Shown here piece by piece: positions 7,725 to 62,384 of a DNA stretch of 64,000 nt. Position 1 is the stretch's first letter; every line of letters begins with the position of its first letter. This DNA is from Candidatus Wolfebacteria bacterium GW2011_GWA1_44_24 (GTDB taxonomy: Bacteria; Patescibacteriota; Minisyncoccia; UBA6257; UBA9933): the NCBI GenBank assembly GCA_001001115.1, contig LCIO01000001.1, positions 300,710 to 364,709 on the forward strand, given 5' to 3'. The notes beneath the pieces were generated by a model that was not told where the DNA came from, ran no database searches, and saw nothing but the letters and a program-made list of their open reading frames with translations. The position numbers were made by a program, and so were the translations under genes.

Positions 7725-8992
7725 AACTCGGTGGCCTTGAAAAAACCGACCGCAAACTTCACCGCTTTGTTGCGGCGGAAATTAAAAGGCAAAACGAAAC
7801 AATTGATTTAATCGCTTCGGAAAATTTTGTCAGCCCGGAGATTCTGGAAGTCTTGGGCTCGCCTTTAACGAATAAATATTCCGAGGGCTATCCCGGGAAA
7901 AGATATTATCCGGGGAATTTTTATTGCGATGAAATTGAAAAATTAGCTCAAGAGCGGGCGTTGAAGGTTTTTGGATTATCTCCCAAGAAATGGGGCGTCA
8001 ATGTCCAGCCATATTCCGGTTCGCCGGCAAATTTGGCGATTTATCTGGCTTTAATGAATCCCGGCGATATTTTAATGGGGATGAAGTTGGCCAGCGGCGG
8101 CCATTTAACCCACGGTCACAAAGCCAGTTTTTCCGGAAAATTATTTAAAGCGGTTCAGTATAGCGTTGATGAAAAGACCGGATTGATAAATTATAAGGAA
8201 GTTAAAAAGCTGGCAAAAAAACATAGGCCAAAAATAATTGTTTCCGGTTATTCCGCTTATCCGCGAAAAATTGATTTTAAGCGGTTTGGCGCGATTGCCA
8301 AAAAAGTCGGCGCTTGCCATTTGGCGGATATTTCCCATGTCGCCGGATTAGTTGTTGCCGGACTTCATCCGTCTCCTTTCCTTTATGCCGATATTGTCAT
8401 GACTACCACTCATAAAACTTTGCGGGGTCCGAGAGCGGCGGTTATTTTTTCAAAGTCAAATGTTAAATGTCAGATGTCGAATGTTTCAATCAGCGAAGCG
8501 ATTGACAAAGCGGTTTTTCCGGGCATGCAGGGCGGACCGCATAATAATGTCATTGCCGCGATTGCTTTGGCTTTCAATGAAGCGTTAAAGCCGGCTTTCA
8601 AAAAATATCAAAAACAAATTATAAAAAACGCCAAGGAGTTGGCGAGCGTTTTAAAAAATTACGGCTTTGATTTGGTAACTGGCGGTACGGACAATCATTT
8701 AGTTTTAATTAATCTTAAAAATATCGGGCTGAACGGCTTGGATGCGGAAAAGATATTGGAATCAGCCGGCATTATCGTCAACCGCAATTCAATTAGCGGC
8801 GATGTTTTGCCTTTCAAGCCGTCGGGAATTCGTTTGGGAACAGCGGCAATCGCCAGCCGCGGATTTAAAGAGAAAGAAATAAGGCAAATCGCCCGATGGA
8901 TTTACCGGCTGTTGATTGAAAAAGAGAAACCAGTCATAATAAGAAAAGAAGTCATTAAGTTGACAAAATATAAAAAGTATGCTATATATTGA
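7721..8992 (+). CDS. glyA: Serine hydroxymethyltransferase
   Basis: PLP-lysine motif TTTHKTLRGPR. 423 aa. ATGA overlap with the upstream gene. Confidence 0.95.
   Translation: MKLGGLEKTDRKLHRFVAAEIKRQNETIDLIASENFVSPEILEVLGSPLTNKYSEGYPGKRYYPGNFYCDEIEKLAQERALKVFGLSPKKWGVNVQPYSGSPANLAIYLALMNPGDILMGMKLASGGHLTHGHKASFSGKLFKAVQYSVDEKTGLINYKEVKKLAKKHRPKIIVSGYSAYPRKIDFKRFGAIAKKVGACHLADISHVAGLVVAGLHPSPFLYADIVMTTTHKTLRGPRAAVIFSKSNVKCQMSNVSISEAIDKAVFPGMQGGPHNNVIAAIALAFNEALKPAFKKYQKQIIKNAKELASVLKNYGFDLVTGGTDNHLVLINLKNIGLNGLDAEKILESAGIIVNRNSISGDVLPFKPSGIRLGTAAIASRGFKEKEIRQIARWIYRLLIEKEKPVIIRKEVIKLTKYKKYAIY
8455..8482 (+). repeat. Heptamer-periodic tract, GTCAGAT family (gtcaaat gttaaat gtcagat gtcgaat, then gttt)
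   Basis: Read directly. Lies in frame inside glyA and encodes VKCQMSNV. Confidence 0.8.
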
Positions 8993-9050
8993 ATAATTGT
9001 TTCAGCTCTTTAACTTTGTAATAAGCGCGACGACGCGACAAGGAGGACGC

Positions 9051-9200
9051 GTGAAAGTAATCAGCATAATCTTCTTTTTCTTGTTTCTGGTCTTTTGGGC
9101 GTTTACAAAGATAATTTTTCCGATGAACTGGGAAATAGACGAAATGACCCGTTGTGGGAGAAAGATCTTGGAAAAATCAAAAAAGCAAAAAGGAGGATAA
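9051..9200 (+). CDS. Tiny membrane protein (hypothetical)
   Basis: GTG start preceded by aaggagga. One hydrophobic helix, ISIIFFFLFLVFWAF. Confidence 0.35.
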   Translation: MKVISIIFFFLFLVFWAFTKIIFPMNWEIDEMTRCGRKILEKSKKQKGG

Positions 9201-9470
9201 ATGATAAGACGGGAAAGGAGAGTGTTTAACAAGAAGAGGATATTCCGGTCTTTTGTCGTTTTTGCTGCTGTCTTTGTGGTGGTGATGGTGATGGCATTTG
9301 CTATCGCCGTTCTTGCAAAGAACAGCTGGGGGAAGGAAGAAAGGAATGAGTGTCTGAAGTGGCAGAAAGAAGCAAGGGAAATACAGGGGTACTTTCTTGC
9401 CAATTGGCAGGCGGAGCAGTGCGCTCGCTGGGGCGTAAAAATAAACGCGCCGATAAAAGCTGATTTCTAA
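9201..9470 (+). CDS. Small TM-anchored protein (hypothetical)
   Basis: SD aaggagga immediately upstream. One TM helix (FVVFAAVFVVVMVMAFAIAVL) and 2 Cys in the ectodomain. Confidence 0.45.
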   Translation: MIRRERRVFNKKRIFRSFVVFAAVFVVVMVMAFAIAVLAKNSWGKEERNECLKWQKEAREIQGYFLANWQAEQCARWGVKINAPIKADF

Positions 9471-9478
9471 AGAAGGGG

Positions 9479-9688
9479 GTGATTAAAGTGAGCACTCAGA
9501 TAGAGAAAGAGGTGGAGATAAAAACGAACGAAGGGTTCAATCTGGTTTTTCACAAAAAGACAGGCAACGAGATTGGTCTTCATCCCTTTTCCCGCCCCAA
9601 AGACAAACCCGATGCGATTCTCTCCGCCATGGTTGTTGAAGGGGCTCGTCGGAAGGCCGAAAAACTGTTTTTGTATTCAAGGGGGTGA
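9479..9688 (+). CDS. Small hypothetical protein ending at an in-frame TGA
   Basis: SD gaaggggg. The likely true start is the GTG at 9488. Ends ...LYSRG-TGA. Confidence 0.4.
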   Translation: MIKVSTQIEKEVEIKTNEGFNLVFHKKTGNEIGLHPFSRPKDKPDAILSAMVVEGARRKAEKLFLYSRG

Positions 9689-9901
9689 TTTGGAATAACG
9701 ACAACGATAGAGTGGACTCCCCAGGGATTTGTTTGTTCGCATTGCGGTACGTCAAATCTCGATAAGCACGACAAATGCGGCAACTGCGATGAAAATCCGT
9801 ATGAACCACTGTCAAAAGACGCTTTGTTGACGCGAGAAGAGTTATCGACTTTTCGGGCCGTAATTAGGAAAGATAAAGTTATTGTGAGGCTTTCTGATTA
9901 A
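9689..9901 (+). CDS. Zinc-ribbon reading frame with no start codon, in the same frame as 9479..9688 across the TGA
   Basis: 70 stop-free codons: FGITTTIEWTPQGFVCSHCGTSNLDKHDKCGNCDENPYEP... No in-frame ATG/GTG/TTG occurs before or within the Zn-ribbon (CxxC...CxxC); the first in-frame candidate is a TTG at codon 47. Confidence 0.4.
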   Translation, partial: FGITTTIEWTPQGFVCSHCGTSNLDKHDKCGNCDENPYEPLSKDALLTREELSTFRAVIRKDKVIVRLSD

Positions 9902-9919
9902 ATCAGAAAGCCTCTTTTT
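9886..9919 (+). terminator. Rho-independent terminator of the small-ORF cassette
   Basis: Perfect 14-bp inverted repeat gaggctttctgatt / aatcagaaagcctc followed by ttttt. Confidence 0.7.
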
Positions 9920-9927
9920 ATTCTCCT

Positions 9928-11151
9928 TTAATTCATTATTTGCTGATTTAATATTTCTTCGACTATTTTCCCTTCATCCCAAGGAATTTTTTTGCCGCTT
10001 TCCACACACATCGAAGACTCGCTTCCTTTGCCGGTTAAAATCACAATATCATCTTTTTTTGCCAAAGAAAGCGCTTTTTCAATCGCTTCTCTGCGGTCAA
10101 CAATTTCGTATAAATTAGAAATTGAAAATTGAAAATCGGAAATTCCAGACTTTATATCCGATAAAATCTGGTTTGGGTTTTCATCGTACGGGTCTTCGTT
10201 GGTTAAGATAATTTCGTCGCAATATTGAGCGGCGATTTTGCCCATTGCCGGCCTTTTCCACTTGTCTCGGCCACCGCCAGCCGCCCCAAACACGCAAATT
10301 AATCTGCGTTGATTGCCTTGTAAAGTTTTATAAACATTAAGTAAAGAATCCGGCGTATGCGCGTAATCAATGATTATTTGAAAATTTTGCCCTTCTTCAA
10401 TAAACTCCATTCTTCCGGGAATACTTTTAATTTCAGAAAGTGTCTTTTTTGAGACCTCGTTTTCAACTCCGTATATTTCCGCTGTTTTTATGGCCGCCGC
10501 GGCATTGCTTAAATTAAAATTTCCCGCAATCTGAAGTTTCAATCCTTTAACATCTTCCAAAGAATAAGCGATTTTATTTTTTGCCGAAATATTCCAAAAC
10601 TCTTCAAAATATTTATCATCTTTATTGATAATATGGCCATTTTTTACGTTTTTGAAAAATTTTAATTTTGCTTGCTTGTAATTTTCAAAAGAGCCGTGCG
10701 ATTCAATGTGTTCCGGCGCCAAATTGGTGAAAACCGCGCTGTCAAAATTTATAAATTTATGGCGCGATTGAACGACGCCCTGAGAAGTAACTTCTATAAT
10801 CGCAAATCGACAGCCGGCTTTTTGAGCTTTGGCTAAAAATTTTTGGATATGAAACCTCCCGGGCATCGTCATTTTCAATTTATTTATCCAGACCTCATCC
10901 GCTATTTTAAATTGAATTGATGAAAGAGCGGCAATTTTATATCCCGCGGCTTCAAAAATTTTGCTTAAAAAATAAACAGTTGTTGATTTTCCTTTGGTGC
11001 CCGTGACGCCGATAACAATCATTTTTCCGGAAGGAAAACCGTAAATAAAAGCGCCCAAAAAAACCAGAAGAAAATGATAAGGCGGCTGAAGGCGGCGGTA
11101 TAAAAACTTCGGAATAATATATTTTTCTATAAATCTTAAAATTTTTTCCAT
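9928..11151 (-). CDS. Mur ligase family protein (MurE-like) lacking the usual N-terminal domain
   Basis: P-loop GVTGTKGKSTT, DYAHTPDSL and GAAGGGRDKWKRP. Only 407 aa, with a hydrophobic N-terminus. Confidence 0.75.
   Translation of the reverse strand: MEKILRFIEKYIIPKFLYRRLQPPYHFLLVFLGAFIYGFPSGKMIVIGVTGTKGKSTTVYFLSKIFEAAGYKIAALSSIQFKIADEVWINKLKMTMPGRFHIQKFLAKAQKAGCRFAIIEVTSQGVVQSRHKFINFDSAVFTNLAPEHIESHGSFENYKQAKLKFFKNVKNGHIINKDDKYFEEFWNISAKNKIAYSLEDVKGLKLQIAGNFNLSNAAAAIKTAEIYGVENEVSKKTLSEIKSIPGRMEFIEEGQNFQIIIDYAHTPDSLLNVYKTLQGNQRRLICVFGAAGGGRDKWKRPAMGKIAAQYCDEIILTNEDPYDENPNQILSDIKSGISDFQFSISNLYEIVDRREAIEKALSLAKKDDIVILTGKGSESSMCVESGKKIPWDEGKIVEEILNQQIMN
10112..10146. repeat. Heptamer-periodic tract (aaattag aaattga aaattga aaatcgg aaattcc)
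   Basis: Read directly. Lies inside the murE-like CDS, where the protein reads ISDFQFSISNLYE. Confidence 0.75.
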
Positions 11152-11154
11152 AAA

Positions 11155-12405
11155 TCATCGCGCCGCCAAACCGCCGGGCAAATAATCCAGGGGGTCAATG
11201 GTTACGCCGATTGGCACAAGGCCGCAGTTGCAGTTTGGCAGATTTTGAAGTCGAATGCTCGGCTCCCAATAAAGTCCGAGATGGAGATGTCCTCGGCCAA
11301 TGGCGTAGCCGGTGTTGCCCGAATAGCCTATTAATTGTCCTTTTTTGACCAAATCGCCTTTTTTCAAAAGAGAATTATAAGAAAGATGGGCGTAAAGAGT
11401 GGCTAAGTTATTGTTATGTTTTATAAGAACGTATTTTCCATACTGATAGCGGCCGTTGTTGCCGATTGCCGTTATTTCGCCGTCGTCAGCGGAGAAAATC
11501 GCCGTGCCGATGGGCGTTCCGAAATCCATTCCATTGTGGGGTTTGCCTCGATAAAGCCGGGAAATTTCGCCGAATTTCTGAGTAATGCGCGGGTTAAGAA
11601 CGGGCCAAGCCAAAATGCCCGGACGCTTAAGCGGCAGAAGCGCGGGGTCGAAAGAGCGCCGCAATTCATCTTCCGTAAACTCAATTTCATCGCTGATGGC
11701 GCTTTGTTTTTTCTCCAAGTCGCTTAATGTTTGCTGATAAACTTTTTCCTGATTTTTAGTGGTTGTTAAAAGTGATTGTTTGTCTTTTTTAATATCTTCG
11801 GTGATTATTTTTTTGTTTTTAAGATTAAAATTTTCTTCTTCCTTGTCCAGTTTTTTATTCGAGAGTTCGTTAATTTTTTCACCTAACCGGGTTTTCAACG
11901 TTCGCATTTCGGCGATTTTATTCGATAAGTTTCCGCTTAAATCGGTTAATCCTTGGACTTCAAAAACGCTCTCGGCCAGACTTTTATTTTTGAGAAAAAT
12001 AACAAGCGGCGTTTCGCTGCTTTTTTGCTGAAGTTCTTTTAGAAGCTCGCTGACGCCTCTTTTTTGAATGTCGATTTTTTCTCCGATTTCGACAATATCA
12101 TTTTGAGCGGAATCAATTTCCAACCCTGTTTTTTCAATCAAAATTTCGCTGGCGCGGACGCTTAGATTGATTTGGTTGATTTGGGTGTTGATTTTATCAA
12201 CCTCTTTTTTCAGAGTCGCGCCTTTTTCTTTGGTTTCTTCGAGACTTTTTTGAGCTTCCTGGATTTGAGCGTTGATTTTCTGAAGTTCTTGAGTTTTTTG
12301 ACCGATGGATTCCTTTAATTCTTGCGGAGTGGCGGCAGAAACCGCTAAAACAGAAAACAGAAAACAGAAAACAGAAAACAGAAATATTTTATAAAATATC
12401 TTCAT
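11155..12405 (-). CDS. Secreted coiled-coil M23 peptidase (EnvC-like)
   Basis: Signal peptide and a long Gln/Lys/Glu coiled coil. M23 motifs HNGMDFG and HLHLGLY. Confidence 0.85.
   Translation of the reverse strand: MKIFYKIFLFSVFCFLFSVLAVSAATPQELKESIGQKTQELQKINAQIQEAQKSLEETKEKGATLKKEVDKINTQINQINLSVRASEILIEKTGLEIDSAQNDIVEIGEKIDIQKRGVSELLKELQQKSSETPLVIFLKNKSLAESVFEVQGLTDLSGNLSNKIAEMRTLKTRLGEKINELSNKKLDKEEENFNLKNKKIITEDIKKDKQSLLTTTKNQEKVYQQTLSDLEKKQSAISDEIEFTEDELRRSFDPALLPLKRPGILAWPVLNPRITQKFGEISRLYRGKPHNGMDFGTPIGTAIFSADDGEITAIGNNGRYQYGKYVLIKHNNNLATLYAHLSYNSLLKKGDLVKKGQLIGYSGNTGYAIGRGHLHLGLYWEPSIRLQNLPNCNCGLVPIGVTIDPLDYLPGGLAAR
12351..12385. repeat. Heptamer tandem repeat cagaaaa x4 plus cagaaat
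   Basis: Read directly. On the coding strand it reads ttttctg and encodes the signal-peptide core FCFLFSVFCFLFSV. Confidence 0.85.
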
Positions 12406-21936: not shown

Positions 21937-22728
21937 ATGTCGAGATATTTGGGACAACATTTTTTAATAGCTAAAAGAAAGATAGGAAAAATCGTTGAAT
22001 CGCTGGAATTGAAAGACAAAGACGTTATTATTGAAATCGGGCCGGGCAAAAGCGCTTTGACGATTCCGCTTTGTGAAAATTGCCGGAAACTCGGTTGTAA
22101 AATTATTGCCGTTGAAAAAGACAAATTGCTCGCCAATAATTTGAAAGAAAAATTCAAAAACGATAAAAATGTTGAAATTATAGAAGGAGATGTTTTAAAA
22201 ATTTTATCAAAAACAATAATTCAATTTAATAATCTTTCAACCGGCAATTATAAAATTGTCGGAAATATACCATATTATATTACTGGATATCTTTTAAGAA
22301 CTTTTGGCGAATTGGAAATTAAACCGTCTTTAATCATTTTAACGATTCAAAAAGAAGTTGCGGAAAGGATAATCGTAAAACCGCCCAAAATGAATTTACT
22401 GGCCGCCAGCGTTCAATTTTGGGCAGAACCGAAAATTATCGGCTATGTTTCAAGAAAAGATTTCAGCCCGCCGCCGAAAGTAGACAGCGCGATTATAGAA
22501 TTAAAAATTAAGAATTATGAATTAAGAATTAAGGATAATTATTACCGAATTATCAAAATTCTCTTTAAACAGCCGAGGAAGACGATATTAAACAATTTAT
22601 TGTCTGGAATCGGGGATAAAAATAAAGAAGAAATTGTTGAAAAATTGAAAAAAGCGGGTATTGATCCGCGGGCAAGGCCGCAAAATTTGAGCATTGAGCA
22701 AATTATCGAATTATCCACTTTATTTTGA
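21937..22728 (+). CDS. rsmA: 16S rRNA dimethyladenosine transferase RsmA/KsgA
   Basis: SAM motif IIEIGPGKSALT, plus NIPYYIT. Confidence 0.9.
   Translation: MSRYLGQHFLIAKRKIGKIVESLELKDKDVIIEIGPGKSALTIPLCENCRKLGCKIIAVEKDKLLANNLKEKFKNDKNVEIIEGDVLKILSKTIIQFNNLSTGNYKIVGNIPYYITGYLLRTFGELEIKPSLIILTIQKEVAERIIVKPPKMNLLAASVQFWAEPKIIGYVSRKDFSPPPKVDSAIIELKIKNYELRIKDNYYRIIKILFKQPRKTILNNLLSGIGDKNKEEIVEKLKKAGIDPRARPQNLSIEQIIELSTLF
22499..22533 (+). repeat. Heptamer-periodic tract (aattaaa aattaag aattatg aattaag aattaag)
   Basis: Read directly. In frame inside rsmA, encoding ELKIKNYELRIKD. Confidence 0.8.
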
Positions 22729-31120: not shown

Positions 31121-31818
31121 GACTTCACATCCCAAAACTTAAAACCCTCGTTTTTCTATTTTCTGCTTTCTGCTTTCTGCTTTCTGCTTTCGGGGCAAAT
31201 GCTCAAACCGCGCCCCAATTTTTGGTTTCTTGGAAGGCCCAGAGTTACGTGCCTTCTTGGTATCAAGGTAAAATTTTCCCGACCAACGGCAGTCGGATTG
31301 ACGTGAATTTTGAATTAATAGATAACGGGAAAATAGCCGACATTTCAAAAAAAGTCATCCGTTGGTATGTCAATGATGAATTGATGAAAAACGAAAAAAA
31401 CGGTTTGGGCATAAAATCTTTTTCTTTCAATGCCGCCGACTATCCGGGGAAGGAAACGGAAATCAGAATTGCCATGCCCGATTATTGGGACGTGCCGTTG
31501 GACAAAATTTTCATAATCCCGATAGTTTCGCCGGAAGTTGTTATTGACGCGCCTTATCCAAGCCGCCGGATTCCAGCTGATAGAAGCTCTTTTTTAGCCT
31601 ATCCGTTTTTCTTTAACATCGGAAATTCAAACAGTCTTTCTTTCGAGTGGTTTGTGAATGACCAATCGGCAAAAGCCGGAGAAAATCCTTCGGCGCTGAA
31701 TTTGAATATTGATTCAACGGCTCCCAAAGGGTTCGCCATTGATATTAAAGTCGTAGTCAAAAATTTGTTGAATGAAATGGAATTTGCGGGCAAAAACATA
31801 AAAATGGAAATAAAATGA
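31117..31818 (+). CDS. Secreted hypothetical protein
   Basis: Signal peptide LVFLFSAFCFLLSAFGANA. ATGA overlaps on both sides. Confidence 0.5.
   Translation: MRLHIPKLKTLVFLFSAFCFLLSAFGANAQTAPQFLVSWKAQSYVPSWYQGKIFPTNGSRIDVNFELIDNGKIADISKKVIRWYVNDELMKNEKNGLGIKSFSFNAADYPGKETEIRIAMPDYWDVPLDKIFIIPIVSPEVVIDAPYPSRRIPADRSSFLAYPFFFNIGNSNSLSFEWFVNDQSAKAGENPSALNLNIDSTAPKGFAIDIKVVVKNLLNEMEFAGKNIKMEIK
31154..31188 (+). repeat. Heptamer tandem repeat ttctatt plus ttctgct x4
   Basis: Read directly. Encodes the signal-peptide core of the 31117 ORF. Confidence 0.85.
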
Positions 31819-35179: not shown

Positions 35180-36085
35180 ATGCCCGAACTTCCTGAGGTC
35201 CAGACTATCGTAAACGATTTGAATAAAAAAATTTTGGGCCGAAAGATTGTTGGTGTCTGGCTTAATACCCTGAAAATCATCAAAAAGCCGAAAGCCGCTG
35301 ATTTGGAAAAGCAAATCAAGGGATTAAGAATTAAAGCCGTTAAACGCCGCGGGAAAAACATCCTTATTTATTTAGAAAAATGCCAGATGTTAAATGTCGG
35401 ATGTCAGACGTTTTTATTACTGATTCATCAAAAGTTAACCGGACATCTTTTAATGGGGAAGTGGAAAATTGAGAAGGGGCGGGTTAAAAGTTTATTAAAA
35501 GGACCGTTGGAAGAAAAAGTCAATAATTATATTCATTTAATTTTTTATCTGGACAACGGCTGGCAAATGGCTTTGTCGGATTTACGGAAATTCGCCAAAG
35601 TGCTGTTCGGCTTGAAAGAAGAAATTGAGAAATTGCCGGATTTGGCGGAAATCGGGCCGGAGCCGTTGGATAAATCTTTCAATTTTTTAATATTTCAATC
35701 AGCAATTTCCAATAAAAAAGGCAGGATTAAACAGGTTTTGATGGACCAGAAAGTAATTGCCGGCATCGGCAATATTTATTCGGATGAAATTTTGTGGCAG
35801 GCAAAGATTCATCCCTTTATTCCGGCTAACAAGCTAAAAATTAATCAGTTAAAAGCTTTGTATTCAGCGATGCGGCAGATTCTGAAAAAGGCCTTAAAAT
35901 TAAGAGGAACTTCAATCAGCGATTTTCGGGACGCCTTTGGCAAGCCCGGGAGATACGCGGAAATCAGAAAAATTTATCAACGCGAAGGCGAAAAATGCCC
36001 GCGTTGCAAAACAATCGTCAAGAGAGTTAAAATGGGAGGAAGATCGGCGCATTTTTGTCCAAGATGCCAAAGAAATCTAAGGTAA
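35180..36085 (+). CDS. mutM: Formamidopyrimidine-DNA glycosylase
   Basis: MPELPEV N-terminus with the catalytic Pro2. C-terminal zinc finger CPRC...CPRC. Confidence 0.9.
   Translation: MPELPEVQTIVNDLNKKILGRKIVGVWLNTLKIIKKPKAADLEKQIKGLRIKAVKRRGKNILIYLEKCQMLNVGCQTFLLLIHQKLTGHLLMGKWKIEKGRVKSLLKGPLEEKVNNYIHLIFYLDNGWQMALSDLRKFAKVLFGLKEEIEKLPDLAEIGPEPLDKSFNFLIFQSAISNKKGRIKQVLMDQKVIAGIGNIYSDEILWQAKIHPFIPANKLKINQLKALYSAMRQILKKALKLRGTSISDFRDAFGKPGRYAEIRKIYQREGEKCPRCKTIVKRVKMGGRSAHFCPRCQRNLR
35382..35409 (+). repeat. Heptamer-periodic tract, GTCAGAT family (gccagat gttaaat gtcggat gtcagac, then gttttta)
   Basis: Read directly. In frame inside mutM, encoding CQMLNVGCQTF. Confidence 0.8.
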
Positions 36086-55211: not shown

Positions 55212-56963
55212 ATGCTTAACCAGGAAATAGCCAAAATTTTTTATCAGATCGCTCAATATCTTGAAATTGAGGGCGTTGCTTTCAAGCCGCAGGCGTATGA
55301 GAAGGTGGCAATGAATTTGGAAATATTAAGCGAGAATATTTCCGACATTTATAGAAAAGGCGGACTTGGGGCGTTGGAACAGATTCCCGGCATCGGCAAA
55401 AGTATAGCGGAAAAAATCGAGGAATATATGAAAACCGGAAAAATCAAAGAATACGAGAAATTAAAAAAGAAAATTCCGGTTAATATCGAAGAATTAACGG
55501 CGGTTGAGGGAATCGGTCCCAAGAAAATCAAAATTTTATATCAGAAATTAAAGATTAAAAATCTGAAAGACCTGGAAAAAGCCGCCAAAGCCCGTAAAAT
55601 CGCGCCCCTATTCGGTTTCGGCGAAAAAACCGAAAAAAATATTTTGGAAGGCATAGAATTTTTGAAGCGAAGCAGGGGGAGATTTTTGCTTGGAGAGATT
55701 TTGCCGACAGTGGAAGAAATAATCAGGAAACTGGAAAAATTAAAAGAAGTGAAAATAATTTCGCCGGCCGGTTCGGTCAGAAGAATGAAAGAAACCGTCG
55801 GCGATGTTGATATTTTGGCGATTGTCGAAAATCCCGAAAGAATTATGGATTATTTCGTTTCTTTGCCGGAAGTTGTAAAAATTTGGAGTAAAGGACCGAC
55901 AAAAGCGTCAGTAAGGATGTCTCGGGGGTTTGATATTGATTTGCGGGTTTTGCCGGAAAAAAGTTTTGGTTCGGCGCTTCAATATTTCACCGGTTCAAAA
56001 GAACATAACATCGCGTTGCGGAAAATAGCCATTGATAAGGGATTGAAATTGTCCGAATACGGCCTTTTCAAGCGGACATCCGCCGGCTGGCGGATGATTG
56101 CCGGCGAAACAGAAGAAGAAATTTACGAAAAATTAGGGCTTAAATTGATTCCGCCGGAGATGCGGGAAAATTCCGGAGAAATTGAAGCGGCTTTGGCGGG
56201 AAAATTGCCGAGAATAATCGGTTATGGCGATATTTTAGGGGATTTGCACGTTCATTCGGATTGGAACGGCGGCAAGAATTCAATCGAAGAATTGGCCAAA
56301 GTGGCGATGGCAATGGGCTATCAATATATCGGCATTTCCGACCACACAAAATTTCTGGCAATTGAACACGGGCTTGATGAAAAAAAATTGGAAAAGCGGA
56401 ATAAAGAAATAGACAGGTTGAATGTCAAATTTAAAAGTCAGTTGTCAGGGGTCAGGGGTCAAATGTTTAGTATTTTAAAGGGTTGCGAAGCCAATATAAT
56501 GGCCGACGGCTCGATTGATATAAAAGACAAGGCTTTGGCAAAATTGGATTATGTAATTGCCGGCGTTCATTCGCAGATGAAAATGCCCAAAGAAAAAATG
56601 ACCGAAAGAATCATTAAGGCAATGGGAAATCCTCATGTTGATATAATTTCCCATCCGACCGGTCGGCTTATCGGCAGGCGCGACGAATATGAAATTGATT
56701 TTGACAAGATTTTGAAAGTTGCCGGAGAAACCGGCACGGTTTTGGAAATCAACGCTAATCCGCATAGATTGGATTTGAAAGATGTTAATATCAGGAAAGC
56801 CAAAAAAGCTGGCGTAAAATTGGTTATCAATAGCGATGCCCACCATAAAGACCAATTGAATCTTATGGAGTATGGCGTTAATCAAGCTTGCCGCGGCTGG
56901 GCCGAGAAAAATGATATTGTTAATTGCTGGCCGGCGAAGAAGATGTTAAAAATGTTAAAATAA
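55212..56963 (+). CDS. Family X DNA polymerase with a C-terminal PHP domain
   Basis: HhH GIGKSIAEKI, catalytic GSVRRMKETVGDVDIL, and PHP LHVHSDW. Confidence 0.9.
   Translation: MLNQEIAKIFYQIAQYLEIEGVAFKPQAYEKVAMNLEILSENISDIYRKGGLGALEQIPGIGKSIAEKIEEYMKTGKIKEYEKLKKKIPVNIEELTAVEGIGPKKIKILYQKLKIKNLKDLEKAAKARKIAPLFGFGEKTEKNILEGIEFLKRSRGRFLLGEILPTVEEIIRKLEKLKEVKIISPAGSVRRMKETVGDVDILAIVENPERIMDYFVSLPEVVKIWSKGPTKASVRMSRGFDIDLRVLPEKSFGSALQYFTGSKEHNIALRKIAIDKGLKLSEYGLFKRTSAGWRMIAGETEEEIYEKLGLKLIPPEMRENSGEIEAALAGKLPRIIGYGDILGDLHVHSDWNGGKNSIEELAKVAMAMGYQYIGISDHTKFLAIEHGLDEKKLEKRNKEIDRLNVKFKSQLSGVRGQMFSILKGCEANIMADGSIDIKDKALAKLDYVIAGVHSQMKMPKEKMTERIIKAMGNPHVDIISHPTGRLIGRRDEYEIDFDKILKVAGETGTVLEINANPHRLDLKDVNIRKAKKAGVKLVINSDAHHKDQLNLMEYGVNQACRGWAEKNDIVNCWPAKKMLKMLK
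56437..56464 (+). repeat. Heptamer-periodic tract, GTCAGAT family (gtcagtt gtcaggg gtcaggg gtcaaat, then gtttagt)
   Basis: Read directly. In frame inside polX, encoding SQLSGVRGQMF. An extra gtcaaat unit lies at 56424-56430. Confidence 0.8.
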
Positions 56964-57753: not shown

Positions 57754-57927
57754 TTATAAATATTTTTTTACAATTTTTTTGCTTAAATCGTCAATTCCGC
57801 GTATTTTTTTTCTGCGGTTAAGCTGCGCGCCTCTTTTTTTGGCGCGAAAATGGTCTTGACCCATTGCTCTCCTTATAACTTTCCCGGTTTTGGTTATTCT
57901 AATGCGATTGGAAACAGATTTTTTCAT
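57754..57927 (-). CDS. rpmI: 50S ribosomal protein L35
   Basis: Own translation; below the track cutoff. MKKSVSNRIRITKTGKVIRRAMGQDHFRAKK... ATGA overlap with the infC stop. Confidence 0.85.
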   Translation of the reverse strand: MKKSVSNRIRITKTGKVIRRAMGQDHFRAKKRGAQLNRRKKIRGIDDLSKKIVKKYL

Positions 57928-58430: not shown

Positions 58431-58443
58431 ATCTTTGATTTAG

Positions 58444-58755: not shown

Positions 58756-59182
58756 GTTGTATTTCCCTTCCAATTTCTCTTTTTCTGATCAATTCTCTTT
58801 TGTCTGCTTTTTTTCGGCTTTTTCCCAAACAGATTTCTATCTTTATTTTCGAGTTTTTAGTATAAATCTTTAAAGGCATCAAAGTCAAGCCTTTTTCATG
58901 GATGCGGCCAATAAGGTTTTTAATTTCCGATTTTTTGAGAAGCAGTCGGCGGTTTCGTTTTGAATTATAATCAAGCGGCGCGTTTTTTGGCTGATAGGGC
59001 GGAATATCGGCGTTTATCAGCCAAGCTTCGTTGTTTCGGATAATGGCATAAGAACCGACAAGATTTATTCTTCCGGATTTTATGGACTTAACTTCAAACC
59101 CTTTCAATTCCAAGCCCGCTTCATAAGTTTCAAGGATTTCGTAGTCGAATCTCGCTTTTTTATTTTCCGCGATTATTGGCAT
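58745..59182 (-). CDS. smpB: SsrA-binding protein SmpB
   Basis: NKKARFDYEILETYEAGLELKGFEVKS. Confidence 0.9.
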   Translation of the reverse strand: MPIIAENKKARFDYEILETYEAGLELKGFEVKSIKSGRINLVGSYAIIRNNEAWLINADIPPYQPKNAPLDYNSKRNRRLLLKKSEIKNLIGRIHEKGLTLMPLKIYTKNSKIKIEICLGKSRKKADKRELIRKREIGREIQRER

Positions 59183-59217
59183 AAATTAAGTATAACTTAT
59201 CCAGAAATTTTAGAAAT

Positions 59218-59242
59218 AAAAAAGGGGCGTTAGTTTCGCCCC
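59218..59242 (-). terminator. Rho-independent terminator of the peptidase gene
   Basis: On the minus strand: ggggcg-aaactaa-cgcccc followed by tttttt. Confidence 0.6.
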
Positions 59243-59258
59243 TATGGAATAAGATGAT

Positions 59259-59837
59259 TTATGTACTACCCAAAAGCCTCCAGAAATCTCCCATTTCTCG
59301 ATCTTGTCTCAGGCATTTTATAAGCCTTGTGTCCAAATAAAAATGGAGGGAGTTTTGTATTTTTTTTATCCATTCCGAATATTCTTCCTTCTTATCATAG
59401 ACGTCCCTTCCAAGATCCAAAAAATGAATCCGCATATCTCTCAAATTAGCAACACTATTGCCAAGACTGGCAAAAAGCATTGTTATGGCAAAGACATCGC
59501 AAAGGAGTTCCCTCATATAGCCGCAATAGGGCACATAGAGGGGTTGTCTTAGCAGCACAAAATGATGTCCTAATTCATGAAATGTCAAGAAATCCAACCA
59601 CATTTGACAATTCGAAACTGGGAGGATCACGACCCTCTTGCAGGGGGGTTTTTCTCCCCTCTCGCTTAATCTTAAATAAGCTGTCGTCTCTTTCTGCTTA
59701 AAATCTGTTATTATCTGAATGTTGCAAATTTCGCAAAGGTTTTTGGCCGACCTTCCTTTAAATTCATCATAAATGTCCAAAAGAACTTTTAAGATTTTCT
59801 TTCTGTGGTGTATTCTTTCGTCAAATATCGTTGCCAT
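59259..59837 (-). CDS. HExxH zinc metallopeptidase, ImmA/IrrE (M78)-like
   Basis: FHELGHHFVLL motif. 192 aa with several Cys. The family call is from the motif only. Confidence 0.5.
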   Translation of the reverse strand: MATIFDERIHHRKKILKVLLDIYDEFKGRSAKNLCEICNIQIITDFKQKETTAYLRLSERGEKPPCKRVVILPVSNCQMWLDFLTFHELGHHFVLLRQPLYVPYCGYMRELLCDVFAITMLFASLGNSVANLRDMRIHFLDLGRDVYDKKEEYSEWIKKIQNSLHFYLDTRLIKCLRQDREMGDFWRLLGST

Positions 59838-59847
59838 TTTTCTTTTT

Positions 59848-59914
59848 CTCCCTATTAAGTTTTAATTTTAATCTTTTTAAATTATAATAAAGTTAAATGA
59901 TTAAATCAAGAATT
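59848..59914. repeat. 67-bp direct repeat, copy 1 (decayed copy of the argS promoter and first codons)
   Basis: 63/67 identical to 60731-60797. Contains tataat and atgattaaatcaag, which reads MIKSRIIF-stop. Confidence 0.85.
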
Positions 59915-60016
59915 ATATTTTAAGTATCAAGCATTAAGCATTATAAAAATAAAAAAGGCCTACTCAACATATAAATGTTTTTCGGCCATATTTTTTTAGG
60001 ATTTTCCCCAAGATTT

Positions 60017-60415
60017 TTATTTTTTTCTCGGATTTTTTCCGTTTTTTTCTGACCTTCCATCACAATCGGGACATGTTTCGTTTTTGAGATATTTATTTCT
60101 CGTAGGCGCAGCGCACATTTTACACCGCACTGCAAGCTCATTTATGAGTAAGGCTACGTCATCGACGCAGGGATCGCCTCCAAAGCGAGATTCTGCATAC
60201 TTGGAGAAAGGGCGATACTGAAAAAGCATTCGCGCTTCTTCTTTTGTCATGGGTTGTATTACAACGCCGACTCCTCCCTTTATTTCGTAAAATTTAACCA
60301 CCTTTTCTTCCTCGTATCGTTGTCTGGCATAGTCGATCAATCCTTTGTCAACTGAAAAAAGTTTTATGTGTTTTGGGTCAATAGCTGGGTTCATCTTGCC
60401 GCATTCTTCGCACAT
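60017..60415 (-). CDS. Hypothetical protein with N- and C-terminal zinc ribbons
   Basis: MCEECG... and CKMC...CPDC. SD aaggaggg upstream. Confidence 0.45.
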   Translation of the reverse strand: MCEECGKMNPAIDPKHIKLFSVDKGLIDYARQRYEEEKVVKFYEIKGGVGVVIQPMTKEEARMLFQYRPFSKYAESRFGGDPCVDDVALLINELAVRCKMCAAPTRNKYLKNETCPDCDGRSEKNGKNPRKK

Positions 60416-60502
60416 TTTTCCCTCCTTATTTGATAATTCTTTTTGATGTATTCGTAAAGAATGCCGTCTTTTTTTCTGGAGATTTTTACTAACCCCCTTC
60501 TT

Positions 60503-60721
60503 TCACAGTAAGAGAAGAAATCCTGTATTTTGTATTCTAAGCTCCTTTCTTAATTTCTTAAAGAAGAATTCATTAAGCCCGACTGGTTTTGAAAAACGAG
60601 ATAAGGTTGTTAAAAGCAATTCCCGTGTCCTTATCACGTTTTTTATAAAACCCTTTGGGGGACCAAAAACATCATAATAAACGTGAGCGATTTCCTTATT
60701 AGTAAGATTTTTCTCTCTCAT
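60503..60721 (-). CDS. Small hypothetical protein, possibly a disrupted winged-helix regulator
   Basis: SD aaggagggg upstream. Ends at a TGA, but both the 0 frame and the +1 frame stay open to 60415. Confidence 0.4.
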   Translation of the reverse strand: MREKNLTNKEIAHVYYDVFGPPKGFIKNVIRTRELLLTTLSRFSKPVGLNEFFFKKLRKELRIQNTGFLLLL

Positions 60722-60730
60722 TATCTACCC

Positions 60731-60797
60731 CTCCTTATTAAGTTTTAATTTCAATCTTTTTAAATTATAATAAAGTTAAATGATTAAGTCAATAATT
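60731..60797. repeat. 67-bp direct repeat, copy 2 (functional argS promoter and start)
   Basis: See copy 1; offset 883 bp. tataat at 60766-60771 and the ATG at 60780. Confidence 0.85.
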
Positions 60798-62384
60798 GAA
60801 AATTATCTTAAAAAAGCGATTAAAGAGAATATTGAGATAGAAGTTTTTGTTTCAGAAGGGGAGCAATTCGGACATTATTCGACGAATGTCGCTTTGAAAT
60901 TGGCGAAAATCAAAAAAGAAAATCCGATGGAAATTGCCGTAAAAATCGCGTCAGATGTCAGACATCGGATGTCAGATGTTTTTAATAAAGTAGAAGTCGC
61001 GCCGCCGGGTTTTATAAATTTTTGGCTCAAGCCGGAAGTTTTTCAAAACGAATTAAAAGAAGTTTTAAAGAAAAAAGAGAAGTACGGCAAATCGCAAATT
61101 GCAAAGCGTAAAGCGTGTAAAATTCAAATTGAATTTATTTCGGCTAATCCCACTGGTCCCTTGACTCTTGCCAATGGCAGGGGAGGTTTTTTAGGTGATG
61201 CTTTAGCTAATATTTTAGAATTTTGCGGATATAAAATTGAGCGGGAATATTATGTAAACGACACCGGCAATCAGATTTTAACGCTGGGAAAATCAATCTT
61301 GGCGGCCGGCGGATCCGTTCCATTCGAAGAAAAATTTTATAAAGGAGAGTATGTAAAAAAATGGGCAAAGAAAAATTCAGCGATAGTGAAAAAATACAAA
61401 GATAATCCATTAAAAGTGGGGAAATTGGCGGCTAAAGATTTTTTGACCGGAATTAAAAAAGTTCTTCAAAAAGAGGCAAAAATTAGTTTTGACCGCTGGA
61501 CTTCGGAAAATAAACACATTCACAAAAGAAGTTATATCAAAAAAACGCTGAATATCTTTAAAAAATCCGGTTTGGTTTATGAAAAAGACGGCGCTGTTTG
61601 GCTTAAAACTACGAAATTCGGAGATGATAAAGACCGCGTCCTGATTACCGGCGATAATTTTCCGACTTATTTTTTGGCCGATTCCGGCCATTATTTGGAA
61701 ACCAAAGAGCGGGGTTTTAGCGGGAAAATTGCTATTTGGGGACCGGACCATTTTGGCTATATCAGGCGCATTCAAACGGCGGCGGAAATTATGGGTTTTG
61801 AAAATTCCGAAATTATCATTACTCAGGCAGTTCGGTTGATGAGTCAAGGCAAGGAAGTTAAAATGTCCAAAAGGACCGGCGAATTTGTGACTTTTGAAGA
61901 ATTGATTAAAAAAGTCGGCGTTGACGCGACGCGGTTTTTCTTTTTAATGCATTCGCCGGATTCTCATATGGATTTTAACCTTGATTTGGCAAAAGAAAGG
62001 TCTTTGAAAAATCCGGTCTATTATGTTCAATACGCGGCAGTAAGATGTCAAAGTATTTTAAAAAAATCAAAAATCAAAGGCCAAAAACCAAAGGCTAAAT
62101 ATAATTTATTAAATACGCCGGAAGATATAAATTTAATTAGATTACTGGCGCGGTTTTCGGAAGTTGTTGAAGAAGCCGCTGGAAAATTAAACCCGCAGAT
62201 TTTGGCGCGTTATTCTTTGGATTTGGCGCGGCAGTTTCATAATTTTTATGAGAAAGAGCGAATAATCGGCGAAAATATTGATAAAAATTTATCATTGGCG
62301 CGTTTGGAACTGATAAAAGCTGTCCAGGCAGCTTTTAAAAATTTATTCGGACTTTTGGGTATTTCTATGCCGAAGAAGATGTAG
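60780..62384 (+). CDS. argS: Arginyl-tRNA synthetase
   Basis: SANPTGPL, KMSKRTG, and a C-terminal DALR-type anticodon-binding region. 534 aa. Confidence 0.9.
   Translation: MIKSIIENYLKKAIKENIEIEVFVSEGEQFGHYSTNVALKLAKIKKENPMEIAVKIASDVRHRMSDVFNKVEVAPPGFINFWLKPEVFQNELKEVLKKKEKYGKSQIAKRKACKIQIEFISANPTGPLTLANGRGGFLGDALANILEFCGYKIEREYYVNDTGNQILTLGKSILAAGGSVPFEEKFYKGEYVKKWAKKNSAIVKKYKDNPLKVGKLAAKDFLTGIKKVLQKEAKISFDRWTSENKHIHKRSYIKKTLNIFKKSGLVYEKDGAVWLKTTKFGDDKDRVLITGDNFPTYFLADSGHYLETKERGFSGKIAIWGPDHFGYIRRIQTAAEIMGFENSEIIITQAVRLMSQGKEVKMSKRTGEFVTFEELIKKVGVDATRFFFLMHSPDSHMDFNLDLAKERSLKNPVYYVQYAAVRCQSILKKSKIKGQKPKAKYNLLNTPEDINLIRLLARFSEVVEEAAGKLNPQILARYSLDLARQFHNFYEKERIIGENIDKNLSLARLELIKAVQAAFKNLFGLLGISMPKKM
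60950..60977 (+). repeat. Heptamer-periodic tract, GTCAGAT family (gtcagat gtcagac atcggat gtcagat, then gttttta)
   Basis: Read directly. In frame inside argS, encoding SDVRHRMSDVF. Also contains the nested palindromes gatgtc-a-gacatc-g-gatgtc. Confidence 0.8.
62062..62096 (+). repeat. Heptamer-periodic tract (aaaaatc aaaaatc aaaggcc aaaaacc aaaggct)
   Basis: Read directly. In frame inside argS, encoding KSKIKGQKPKAK. Confidence 0.7.

What the first reader, a model, noticed from the sequence alone, without database searches (positions are those of the whole stretch)
8455..60977. GTCAGAT-family tracts share flanks and orientation, suggesting a common inserted element
Four tracts use variants of GTCAGAT: glyA 8455, mutM 35382, polX 56437 and argS 60950.

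All four are followed by GTTT: gtttcaa, gttttta, gtttagt, gttttta. Three follow a run of 3-5 A (tcaaa, gaaaaat, ttaaaa); in argS (aaaaatcgc) the A-run is separated from the tract by tcgc.

All four lie in the sense orientation of their host gene, but they are read in different frames.

GTCAGAT repeats are stop-free in all three forward frames. The reverse complement ATCTGAC contains TGA, which would explain the orientation bias if insertions are selected for staying open.

The argS copy also forms nested palindromes, gatgtc-a-gacatc-g-gatgtc.

Shared ends argue for insertion of one sequence type rather than four independent slippage events.
Basis: seen in the sequence. Interest (0 to 1): 0.55.

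Follow-up and report, generated by a model that had tools for sequence, protein, structure and literature searches.

The report
Seven-base repeats inside essential genes
The four GTCAGAT tracts are real, but they are not copies of one inserted element: they belong to a genome-wide crop of short 7-base tandem repeats that this candidate-phylum bacterium (Wolfebacteria) and its relatives carry, translated and in frame, in the most variable loops of housekeeping proteins.

Summary
Four tracts of four GTCAGAT-like heptamers followed by GT lie in frame in glyA, mutM, polX and argS of Candidatus Wolfebacteria GW2011_GWA2_42_10.

Compared with the closest orthologues, glyA has gained 27 nt, mutM 30 nt and polX 15 nt. 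The argS tract occupies a segment of unchanged length.

The "shared ends" are host codons: Lys AAA/AAG upstream, and a conserved Phe TTT or Ser TCA downstream. There is no target duplication. The orientation bias follows from TGA in the complement.

The tracts are part of something larger. Period-7 arrays occur 9 times in 43 kb of window ORFs, against 0.07 expected. They are 10-25 times denser in Wolfebacteria-like DNA than in non-CPR controls, and about 88% lie inside ORFs. Units vary: GTCARAN, TCAAAAA, GAATTAA, CTACAAA, AATCTCA, and CTGTTTT in signal peptides.

The same protein site carries unrelated units in different species, at constant length. Arrays sit in the most variable protein segments and do not vary between strains.

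The best explanation is lineage-specific heptanucleotide slippage or templated conversion, filtered by selection. A copy-paste mini-element is not excluded. I found no description of this in the literature I could search.

The parts
8455..8484 (+). glyA (SHMT) heptamer array: GTCAAAT GTTAAAT GTCAGAT GTCGAAT GT. It encodes SNVKCQMSNV.
   Evidence: It is +27 nt against the syntenic orthologues L111 and L113 and an 8-aa gap against Thermus SHMT. In the AF2 model the segment is coil between strand 240-245 and helix 257-269.
35375..35411 (+). mutM (Fpg) heptamer array: (GAAAAAT) GCCAGAT GTTAAAT GTCGGAT GTCAGAC GT. It encodes EKCQMLNVGCQT.
   Evidence: 36 nt replace GGCGAT, the 2-residue beta-hairpin turn of the closest representative, L144. 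It is about +9 aa against Lactococcus Fpg.
56417..56466 (+). polX heptamer array, longer than reported: GTTGAAT GTCAAAT TTAAAA GTCAGTT GTCAGGG GTCAGGG GTCAAAT GT. It encodes LNVKFKSQLSGVRGQM.
   Evidence: It is +5 aa against the L087 orthologue, which carries an AATTTAA array (NLKFKIKNLKF) at the same site.
60950..60979 (+). argS site 1 heptamer array: GTCAGAT GTCAGAC ATCGGAT GTCAGAT GT. It encodes SDVRHRMSDV.
   Evidence: The segment length is unchanged in 16 orthologues, and other species carry other units here. It is the most variable 11-aa window of ArgRS.
61084..61119 (+). argS site 2 array with a different unit (GCAAATC/TCGCAAA type). It encodes GKSQIAKRKAC.
   Evidence: The same site carries GTCAAAT/GTCAAAG arrays in L087 and L090, TCGCAAA x4 in L098 and AATTCAA x5 in L097.
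62062..62100 (+). argS site 3 array (AAAAATC / ATCAAAG type). It encodes KSKIKGQKPK.
   Evidence: The orthologous site carries GTCAAAG x3 in L087 and GTCAAAT/G arrays in L095 and L096.
10109..10149 (-). Array of TTTTCAA-type units (sense) in a Mur ligase gene. It encodes SGISDFQFSISNL.
12340..12393 (-). Perfect CTGTTTT x5.4 array (sense). It forms the hydrophobic core of the signal peptide of an M23 peptidase (MKIFYKIFLFSVFCFLFSVLAV).
   Evidence: TRF score 76, 100% matches.
22491..22538 (+). GAATTAA-type array in ksgA/rsmA (RrnaAD). It encodes IIELKIKNYELRIKD. The in-frame TAA of the unit is broken by a GAATTAT copy.
   Evidence: The same unit, with the same TAT fix, fills argS site 1 in L090.
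31148..31193 (+). TTTCTGC x4.6 array. It forms the hydrophobic core of a signal peptide (VFLFSAFCFLLSAF) in a protein with no Pfam match.
   Evidence: 100% matches.
59913..59947 (.). Intergenic period-7 array (TTAAGTA/TTAAGCA units) upstream of the argS region.
   Evidence: A similar intergenic array lies at L095 8909-8936.

Best explanation
The four tracts are independent members of a lineage-wide class of short heptanucleotide tandem arrays (4-7 units) in Wolfebacteria and neighbouring Parcubacteria.

What I infer about the mechanism:
- A DNA-level process working in a 7-nt register creates and homogenises the arrays. Candidates are replication slippage or transient misalignment with templated copying. 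It acts without regard to coding.
- Arrays may grow from local seed sequences.
- Selection then keeps only arrays that preserve the reading frame, contain no in-frame stop, and fall where the protein tolerates any sequence.
- Because sense strands here are A-rich, and a T can be followed by few bases without making a stop, NTCARAN units such as GTCAGAT dominate.
- Because TCA gives TGA on the other strand, those arrays survive only in the sense orientation.
- The apparent common flanks are a partial fifth unit (GT) abutting host Lys and Phe/Ser codons at loop boundaries.

What is shown directly:
- The periodicity excess and its restriction to this lineage.
- That the arrays are translated and sit in permissive places: surface loops, beta-hairpin turns, the hypervariable segments of ArgRS, and the hydrophobic cores of signal peptides.
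- Filled versus empty orthologous sites.
- Different units at the same protein site in different species.
- Stop-breaking variant copies.
- Stability between strains.

What is inferred: the slippage or conversion mechanism, the seeding from local sequence, and why the step is 7 nt.
For: Period 7 is unique in the window.
- 9 arrays (at least 16 of 21 lag-7 matches) lie in 43.4 kb of window ORFs, against 0.07 under codon shuffling (maximum 1 in 200). Periods 5, 6, 8, 10 and 11 give 0-1.

The excess is lineage-restricted.
- 9 arrays in the 64 kb window.
- 20 arrays per 65 kb in L087, L089 and L090.
- 9 arrays per 152 kb in other CPR loci.
- 16 arrays per 1,252 kb in non-CPR loci.

Arrays are mostly coding and use many units.
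- 57 arrays lie in 231 kb of Wolfebacteria-like DNA, 50 of them inside ORFs.

The same protein site carries different units in different species.
- argS site 1 is 11 codons in every orthologue. It carries TCAGATG (window, L087, L089), GAATTAA (L090), AATCTCA (L092 and L098, 25-26 of 26 lag-7 matches) and GCTTGTC (L101). It has no periodicity in L093, L095, L100 and L102.
- 0 of 79 distant ArgRS loci are periodic at that site.
- The same pattern holds at argS sites 2 and 3, at polX and at three ileS sites.

There is a hint of local seeding.
- L092 keeps the same right end, TCAGATGTTTTT (SDVF), but its array is AATCTCA, which resembles the native AAAATC on the left.

The process is blind to coding.
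- 18 of 50 consensus units contain a stop. Each of these arrays lies in an uninterrupted reading frame. In the cases read codon by codon, a variant copy removes the stop at exactly that codon: GAATTAT, GAATTTA, ATTTAAA.
- Perfect lag-7 identity includes synonymous positions.

Arrays sit in permissive sites.
- ArgRS arrays lie at entropy percentiles 100, 97.7 and 97.9.
- The SHMT tract is coil in a model with pLDDT 93.7.
- The mutM tract sits in a hairpin turn.

Flanks and orientation are explained by host sequence.
- Flanks are host codons.
- 24 of 24 NTCARAN arrays are in the sense orientation.

There is a precedent. Heptanucleotide repeats were reported as the most abundant class of 5-11-nt simple repeats in prokaryotes, with polymerase slippage proposed as the cause (Mrazek et al. 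2007, as summarised in PMC4679880).
Against: - Single-unit slippage in an essential gene shifts the frame. Arrays must therefore arise in 3-unit steps, by compensated events, or by conversion without a change in length. None of these was observed directly.
- The net gains (27, 30, 15 and 21 nt) are not simple multiples of 7.
- GTCARAN units are roughly 30-fold commoner than random stop-free sense heptamers predict (20% against 0.6%). My composition-and-selection argument for this has not been quantified.
- L093 ileS and L087 argS are non-orthologous genes in different species, yet they share 30 of 32 nt (TCAGATGTCAGACGTCGG..GTCAGATGTTTT) in the same frame. This looks like copying.
- The empty mutM site of L144 shows no obvious local seed.
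- No strain-level length variation was seen, so ongoing slippage is not demonstrated.
Confidence: 0.6

Rival explanations
1. Copy-paste origin, which is the first reader's idea in a broader form. Arrays of about 30 nt would be copied from array to array or from a master copy, either by a very small mobile element or by ectopic templated repair or gene conversion anchored on microhomology. The copy would land in, or overwrite, permissive sites.
For: - There is presence/absence polymorphism at orthologous sites (glyA, mutM).
- GTCARAN arrays have a recurrent size of exactly four units.
- The GTCARAN family is strongly over-represented.
- L093 ileS and L087 argS share 30 of 32 nt, including the variant units GTCAGAC and GTCGGNN, in the same frame.
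- The window mutM and argS tracts share TCGGATGTCAGAYGTTTTTA.
- CTACAAA arrays occur in unrelated genes of L087 and L090.
- The same GAATTAA...GAATTAT array occurs in the window ksgA and in L090 argS.
Against: - There are no conserved termini, because the flanks are host codons.
- There is no target duplication.
- There is no consistent hairpin.
- Net length changes differ: 27, 30, 15, 21 and 0 nt.
- Unrelated units replace one another at a single site without a change in length.
- The variants GTCGGAT and GTCAGAC arise independently in Mariprofundus and in IMG/VR arrays. Shared variants are therefore weak evidence of common descent.
- Units are shared no more within a genome than between genomes (0.042 against 0.026; 421 of 2000 permutations reach the observed value).
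- A different stop-fix (TTA) is used in another GAATTAA array.
Confidence: 0.22
2. The arrays are functional nucleic-acid elements selected for 7-nt periodicity as such. They could be binding platforms for a single-strand-binding or cold-shock-type protein (about one monomer per heptamer), or signals that pace translation at domain boundaries.
For: - Periodicity is maintained, sometimes perfectly, while the unit sequence is free to change at a given site.
- The argS array is 94% identical between the window and L087, against 74% gene-wide. This is in the top 2% of sliding windows.
- CspB is reported to bind heptamer repeats, one protein per heptamer (PMC4679880).
Against: - Many orthologues lack any periodicity at the same sites.
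- Other orthologous array pairs are no better conserved than the gene average (76% and 73%).
- Units and contexts are very heterogeneous (loops, signal peptides, intergenic DNA).
- There is no common structure.
Confidence: 0.08
3. The arrays are phase-variable contingency loci: simple repeats that switch genes on and off by changes in copy number.
For: Heptanucleotide repeats do act in this way in Haemophilus hmw promoters (literature listed).
Against: - The hosts are single-copy housekeeping genes (argS, ileS, glyA, mutM, polX).
- Arrays are short and degenerate.
- Members of the clusters at 90% identity or more differ elsewhere in the protein but never in the tract.
- The identical ArgRS sequence was recovered on 16 contigs from independent samples.
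Confidence: 0.03
4. The cause is selection at the protein level for a 7-residue repeat peptide, for example a linker or an amphipathic motif. The DNA periodicity would then be a by-product.
For: - The peptides are hydrophilic and rich in K, S, Q and N in loops, and hydrophobic in signal peptides.
- Lag-7 peptide repeats are enriched in ArgRS homologues: 14 of 120, against 0-3 at other lags.
Against: - The period is 7 nucleotides, not 21. Synonymous positions are periodic too, up to 26 of 26 matches.
- Units containing stops are used and patched.
- Arrays also occur in intergenic DNA.
Confidence: 0.03

Closest known systems
Heptanucleotide long simple sequence repeats of prokaryotes (Mrazek, Guo & Shah 2007, as summarised in PMC4679880) and cyanobacterial STRR heptamer repeats (STRR from my own knowledge)
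   Same: Both are head-to-tail 7-nt units with many different units per genome. Their distribution is sporadic and lineage-specific, and slippage in a 7-nt register has been proposed as the cause. GTCAGAT arrays themselves occur elsewhere: (GTCAGAT)8(GTCGGAT)7 in Mariprofundus, and arrays in IMG/VR contigs.
   Different: The known repeats are long, mostly intergenic and often polymorphic, and units whose length is not a multiple of 3 were reported to avoid coding regions. Here the arrays are short (4-7 units) and about 88% lie inside ORFs. They include essential genes, are in frame and translated, and are stable between strains.
TAACTGA heptamer direct repeats of Beggiatoaceae, cyanobacteria and Bacteroidetes (MacGregor 2015, PMC4679880)
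   Same: Both are tandem heptamers with 2-6 copies per set and hundreds of sets per genome. Orientation is constrained by stop codons. The unit is related (the reverse complement TCAGTTA resembles the polX unit GTCAGTT). The origin of both is unexplained.
   Different: TAACTGA is a single dominant unit that contains stops in the forward orientation. It lies mainly in 5' intergenic regions, and a regulatory role has been proposed. Here there are many units, and they lie within coding sequence.
In-frame mini-insertions in conserved genes: Rickettsia palindromic elements and cyanobacterial small dispersed repeats (from my own knowledge)
   Same: Both are short repeated sequences found inside housekeeping genes at permissive sites, translated, and present or absent between orthologues.
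   Different: Those elements have a defined consensus, palindromic structure or terminal repeats, and a fixed length. The arrays here have no conserved termini, no hairpin, variable net length and internal 7-nt periodicity.
Tandem repeats of Borg elements that create disordered protein regions (PMC9879509; title and abstract seen, remaining comparison points from my own knowledge)
   Same: Both are DNA-level tandem repeats that arise independently and add new peptide segments to proteins. Local origin and A-rich units are a further resemblance from my own knowledge.
   Different: As I recall, Borg repeat units inside ORFs are multiples of 3 nt, longer, perfect and fast-evolving. Here the unit is 7 nt, so only the total array length preserves the frame.

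Membership tests
Prokaryotic heptanucleotide simple sequence repeats (LSSR / STRR type) | Head-to-tail copies of a 7-nt unit | tested here: met
   TRF gives period 7 for 8450, 56444 and 60950, and 100% matches for 12347 and 31160.
Prokaryotic heptanucleotide simple sequence repeats (LSSR / STRR type) | More frequent or longer than composition predicts | tested here: met
   9 arrays observed against 0.07 expected under codon shuffling. 15 matches against 1.63 for the GTCAGAT pattern.
Prokaryotic heptanucleotide simple sequence repeats (LSSR / STRR type) | Units whose length is not a multiple of 3 lie mainly outside coding regions | tested here: not met
   50 of 57 arrays lie in ORFs of at least 80 aa. 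Coding density of L087 is about 92%, from the gene table.
Prokaryotic heptanucleotide simple sequence repeats (LSSR / STRR type) | Copy-number polymorphism between close strains | tested here: not met
   Members of the clusters at 90% identity or more for ArgRS, SHMT and PolX show no difference in the tracts. The sample is small (2-3 variants each).
Miniature mobile elements (MITE, RPE, SDR-like) | Conserved element termini or terminal inverted repeats | tested here: not met
   The flanks are host Lys and Phe/Ser codons that are also present in orthologues without the tract. Sister arrays and arrays from other phyla have other flanks.
Miniature mobile elements (MITE, RPE, SDR-like) | Target-site duplication at filled versus empty sites | tested here: not met
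   None is seen at glyA (window against L111 and L113) or at mutM (window against L144).
Miniature mobile elements (MITE, RPE, SDR-like) | Presence/absence at orthologous sites and near-identical copies at unrelated sites | tested here: inconclusive
   Presence/absence is shown. One pair, L093 ileS and L087 argS, is 30 of 32 nt identical. However, the same variants recur independently, and there is no within-genome excess of shared units.
Miniature mobile elements (MITE, RPE, SDR-like) | Stable hairpin or palindromic structure | tested here: not met
   RNA fold z-scores are +1.8, -0.8, +1.4, -1.65, 0.0 and +0.8 for six arrays.
Phase-variable contingency loci | The repeat changes length at high frequency and switches expression of surface or variable genes | tested here: not met
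   The hosts are housekeeping genes. Tracts are invariant between strains and across 16 contigs.
Borg-type amino-acid tandem repeats | Repeat unit inside ORFs is divisible by 3 | tested here: not met
   The unit is 7 nt. The frame is kept only by the total length of the array.

The most novel reading that the evidence does not exclude
Wolfebacteria and related Parcubacteria have a previously undescribed molecular drive. It repeatedly rewrites permissive segments of genes, essential ones included, into heptanucleotide arrays, often without changing segment length. It would work by conversion in a 7-nt register or by implanting cassettes of about 30 nt. The result is that orthologous loops carry unrelated, internally homogenised 7-mer arrays in different species. 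This would be either a new mutational process tied to the unusual replication and repair machinery of CPR bacteria, or the smallest known class of copy-paste sequence.
Probability: 0.3. Interest if true: 0.8.

Novelty: new variant of a known kind. Interest (0 to 1): 0.6.

Why it matters
Tandem repeats whose unit is not a multiple of three are expected to be excluded from coding sequence. Here they are as common inside genes as outside. They sit in aminoacyl-tRNA synthetases, SHMT and DNA-repair enzymes, and they even build the hydrophobic cores of signal peptides.

This shows that a DNA-level process can manufacture new peptide segments in the streamlined genomes of CPR bacteria. It also offers a way to study the unexplained preference for 7-nt repeats in prokaryotes: dozens of filled, empty and differently filled orthologous sites are available for comparison.

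There are practical consequences:
- The arrays mark permissive insertion sites in conserved enzymes.
- They can mislead alignment, phylogeny and repeat or mobile-element annotation in CPR genomes.

Tried and rejected
- **One genome-contig scan was largely wasted.** The ArgRS alignment gave patterns that were too permissive, so almost only distant, non-CPR ArgRS loci came back. I reused them as negative controls.
- **The metagenome scan with ArgRS gave only 19 loci.**
- **Search with a profile of translated GTCARAN repeats.** It found only long arrays called as short spurious ORFs in other phyla. It was useful for showing that GTCAGAT arrays exist elsewhere with unrelated flanks, but it could not detect the short arrays in CPR proteins.
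- **Is GTCAGAT intrinsically favoured across bacteria?** Nine IMG/VR loci carry at least three perfect units. Three scrambled heptamers of the same composition gave 6, 1 and 12 loci. Rejected.
- **A hairpin or palindrome role for the argS tract.** Rejected (the L087 orthologue differs).
- **Hyperconservation of tracts at the DNA level.** It holds for one orthologue pair only.
- **Genome-specific unit families, which would indicate a master copy.** Not significant.
- **Literature searches linking heptamer repeats with Patescibacteria or Parcubacteria, or with coding heptapeptide repeats.** Nothing relevant was found. Mrazek 2007 itself is not held.
- **Contingency-locus and protein-selection readings.** Rejected (see the rival explanations).

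Full report
**1. The observation**

The window comes from Candidatus Wolfebacteria bacterium GW2011_GWA2_42_10 (LCCF01000004.1, a Rifle groundwater CPR genome). The ArgRS it encodes is found unchanged on 16 contigs from independent samples.

Each consists of four GTCAGAT-like heptamers followed by GTTT, on the + strand, in frame in + strand genes. Pfam confirms the genes as SHMT, Fpg/MutM, PolX and ArgRS.

Two GTCAGAT units with up to 3 mismatches match 15 times, against 1.63 expected by shuffling.

Small corrections:
- Only two codon phases are used.
- The real glyA and mutM tracts are open in just two forward frames.
- The mutM and argS tracts each retain one open reverse frame.
- The polX array extends upstream to 56417.

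**2. The tracts are part of a much larger phenomenon**

Tandem Repeats Finder and a lag-autocorrelation scan show that period 7 is the only short period with strong arrays in the window. Other units include:
- a perfect CTGTTTT x5.4 array (12340-12393, - strand gene);
- TTTCTGC x4.6 (31148-31193);
- GAATTAA-type (22491-22538);
- TTTTCAA-type (10109-10149);
- two further arrays inside argS itself (61084-61119 and 62062-62100).

In 43.4 kb of 32 large ORFs there are 9 arrays with at least 16 of 21 lag-7 matches. Codon shuffling predicts 0.07, with a maximum of 1 in 200 shuffles. Periods 5, 6, 8, 10 and 11 give 0-1.

The excess is restricted to this lineage:

| Sequence set | Arrays | Length |
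|---|---|---|
| Window | 9 | 64 kb |
| Three Wolfebacteria relatives (L087, L089, L090) | 20 | 65 kb |
| Other CPR loci | 9 | 152 kb |
| Non-CPR loci | 16 | 1,252 kb |

In 231 kb of Wolfebacteria-like DNA I found 57 arrays, 50 of them inside ORFs. That is about the coding density of these genomes (about 92% in L087, from the gene table).

**3. What the arrays do to the proteins**

They are translated. The host ORFs run through them in frame.

Eighteen of 50 consensus units contain a stop codon, yet each of these arrays lies in an uninterrupted reading frame. In the cases read codon by codon, a variant copy removes the stop at exactly the codon where it would fall:
- GAATTAA becomes GAATTAT or GAATTTA;
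- ATTGAAA becomes ATTTAAA.

They lie where the protein tolerates anything:
- The three ArgRS arrays occupy the three most variable segments of the family, at entropy percentiles 100, 97.7 and 97.9.
- The SHMT tract is a coil between strand 240-245 and helix 257-269 in a confident model (pLDDT 93.7). It falls in a gap relative to Thermus SHMT.
- The MutM tract expands a 2-residue beta-hairpin turn.
- T-rich units form the hydrophobic cores of two signal peptides.

**4. Insertion or not?**

- **glyA.** The syntenic orthologues L111 and L113 read TTT TCA AAA (ACA|AAA) TCA/ACA ATT AGY. The window has 27 extra nt between them. About half of 120 SHMT homologues have no insert. The rest carry 9-10-aa inserts with 7-aa periodicity from several different units.
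- **mutM.** 36 nt replace GGCGAT of the closest representative (L144), a net +30 nt.
- **polX.** The window is +15 nt against L087, which has its own AATTTAA array at the same place.
- **argS.** There is no length change at all. The 11-codon segment is the same length in 16 orthologues and in Pyrococcus ArgRS.

Neither filled-versus-empty comparison shows a target duplication.

**5. Same site, different unit**

ArgRS site 1 carries:
- TCAGATG in the window, L087 and L089;
- GAATTAA in L090;
- AATCTCA in L092 and L098 (25-26 of 26 lag-7 matches);
- GCTTGTC in L101;
- ACTGACA-like units in L099 and L105;
- no periodicity in L093, L095, L100, L102, L008 and L009.

None of 79 distant ArgRS loci is periodic at this site. 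The same pattern holds at ArgRS sites 2 and 3, at the PolX site, and at three IleRS sites. One of the IleRS sites differs by exactly 7 aa, which is 3 units.

L092 retains the same right-hand sequence, TCAGATGTTTTT (SDVF), as the window. Its array, however, is AATCTCA, which resembles the native AAAATC on the left. This suggests that different local seeds spread in different lineages.

**6. The 'shared flanks' and the orientation bias**

The TTT after the tract is host sequence:
- In ArgRS it is a Phe codon conserved in homologues without any tract.
- In PolX it is conserved in L087.
- In MutM it sits at the Tyr/Phe position of the empty site.
- In glyA the third T belongs to the native TCA codon.

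The upstream A-runs are Lys codons; in glyA, polX and argS they are also present in the orthologues compared. Given a partial unit GT, P(TT) is 0.20, and P(AAA within 7 nt upstream) is 0.20. The coincidence is therefore real but modest. My inferred explanation is that arrays fill loops bounded by Lys-rich and Phe/Leu-initiated structural elements.

Sister arrays end in GTTC, GCTC, ATTA or GGAT. GTCAGAT arrays in Mariprofundus, in a JGI contig and in nine IMG/VR contigs have unrelated flanks.

All 24 NTCARAN arrays are in the sense orientation. This follows from TCA giving TGA on the opposite strand.

The argS palindrome is not significant and is not conserved.

**7. Mechanism**

Protein-level selection cannot produce nucleotide periodicity that includes synonymous sites.

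Contingency-locus behaviour is contradicted by the housekeeping hosts and by the absence of any tract variation among strain-level variants.

The best-supported reading is a lineage-specific DNA-level process in a 7-nt register, either slippage or transient misalignment with templated copying. It would create and homogenise arrays, and selection would keep only arrays that are frame-preserving, stop-free and located at permissive sites.

Heptanucleotide repeats are already known as the commonest 5-11-nt simple repeats in prokaryotes, and a polymerase footprint of 7 nt has been suggested as the reason (Mrazek 2007, via PMC4679880).

What remains unexplained:
- how arrays arise in essential genes without frameshifted intermediates;
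- why NTCARAN units are about 30-fold over-represented;
- why L093 ileS and L087 argS share 30 of 32 nt in the same frame.

These points keep a copy-paste or ectopic-templating model alive. Three observations count against it:
- the same variants (GTCGGAT, GTCAGAC) arise independently in other phyla;
- units are not shared more within genomes than between them;
- GTCAGAT is not globally favoured over scrambled controls.

**8. Comparison with what is known, and novelty**

The closest known things are:
- prokaryotic heptanucleotide simple repeats and cyanobacterial STRR;
- the intergenic TAACTGA heptamer repeats;
- in-frame mini-insertions such as Rickettsia palindromic elements;
- Borg tandem repeats.

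The arrays here differ from all of these. They are short, overwhelmingly intragenic, in frame in essential genes and stable between strains. They replace one another at orthologous sites.

Searches of the held literature found nothing linking heptamer repeats to Patescibacteria or Parcubacteria.

I classify this as a new variant of a known kind.

Noticed in passing
window 12340-12393 (- strand) and 31148-31193 (+ strand): Two perfect heptamer arrays (CTGTTTT x5.4 and TTTCTGC x4.6, one base apart as units) encode the hydrophobic cores of N-terminal signal peptides. One is in an M23 peptidase and the other in a protein with no Pfam match. A DNA repeat is in effect building the signal peptide.
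   Followed up: partly
window 22491-22538; L090 10195-10242: The same GAATTAA array, with the same stop-breaking GAATTAT copy, occurs in two places. It gives the peptide ELKIKNYELRI in ksgA/rsmA of the window and ELRIKNYELRI in ArgRS site 1 of another species. A third GAATTAA array (L090 18504) uses a different fix, TTA.
   Followed up: partly
L093 8192-8223 versus L087 10171-10202: Arrays 30 of 32 nt identical (TCAGATGTCAGACGTCGG..GTCAGATGTTTT, peptide SDVRRR[VT]SDV) lie in non-orthologous genes (ileS and argS) of two species. The reciprocal sites are array-free. This is the strongest hint of copying between loci.
   Followed up: partly
L114 3053-3157 (Mariprofundus sp. EBB-1, RCFQ01000001.1): An intergenic (GTCAGAT)8(GTCGGAT)7 array lies directly after a Wzz/tyrosine-kinase gene in a capsule locus and is called as a 74-aa hypothetical protein. 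Similar long GTCAGAT, GTCAAAA and GTCAAAG arrays are called as small ORFs in Proteobacteria, Cyanobacteria and Bacteroidetes.
   Followed up: partly
L115 3180-3205: A second heptamer array (CCGCCAT x4) lies about 110 nt downstream of a (GTCAGAT)9 array in a high-GC metagenomic contig.
   Followed up: no
window 56100-56125 (polX, residues about 297-303): The window PolX has a further 4-aa insertion (FKRTSAGWRMIAG against FK----GSKMIAG in L087). It is unrelated to the heptamer array.
   Followed up: no
ArgRS homologues P0006, P0014, P0024, P0037, P0039, P0059 (N-terminal 60 residues): Additional lineage-specific inserts occur at other ArgRS positions. Several have 7-aa periodicity (NYAEQTRNYAD, LINTDFKLINTNFK, TNEQQPANNEQRLK). 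GMRKPEQSSMRKAHAN is only roughly periodic, at 7-8 aa.
   Followed up: no
window 59913-59947; L095 8909-8936: Similar intergenic period-7 arrays (TTAAGTA/TCAAGCA units) lie a few hundred to about 850 nt upstream of argS in two species. They could be a conserved regulatory or promoter-proximal feature.
   Followed up: no
L090 4664-5449: A gene with bAvd / 23S_rRNA_IVP domains, an accessory protein of diversity-generating retroelements, lies 5 kb upstream of argS in a relative. It contains a heptamer array of its own (AAATCCT, L090 5016-5057).
   Followed up: no
SHMT homologues P0138, P0142, P0150, P0196, P0208: Much longer inserts (20-35 aa) occur at the same SHMT loop. Some look like compound arrays (SQIRNPKSQINSKLKIQNSKL).
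   Followed up: no
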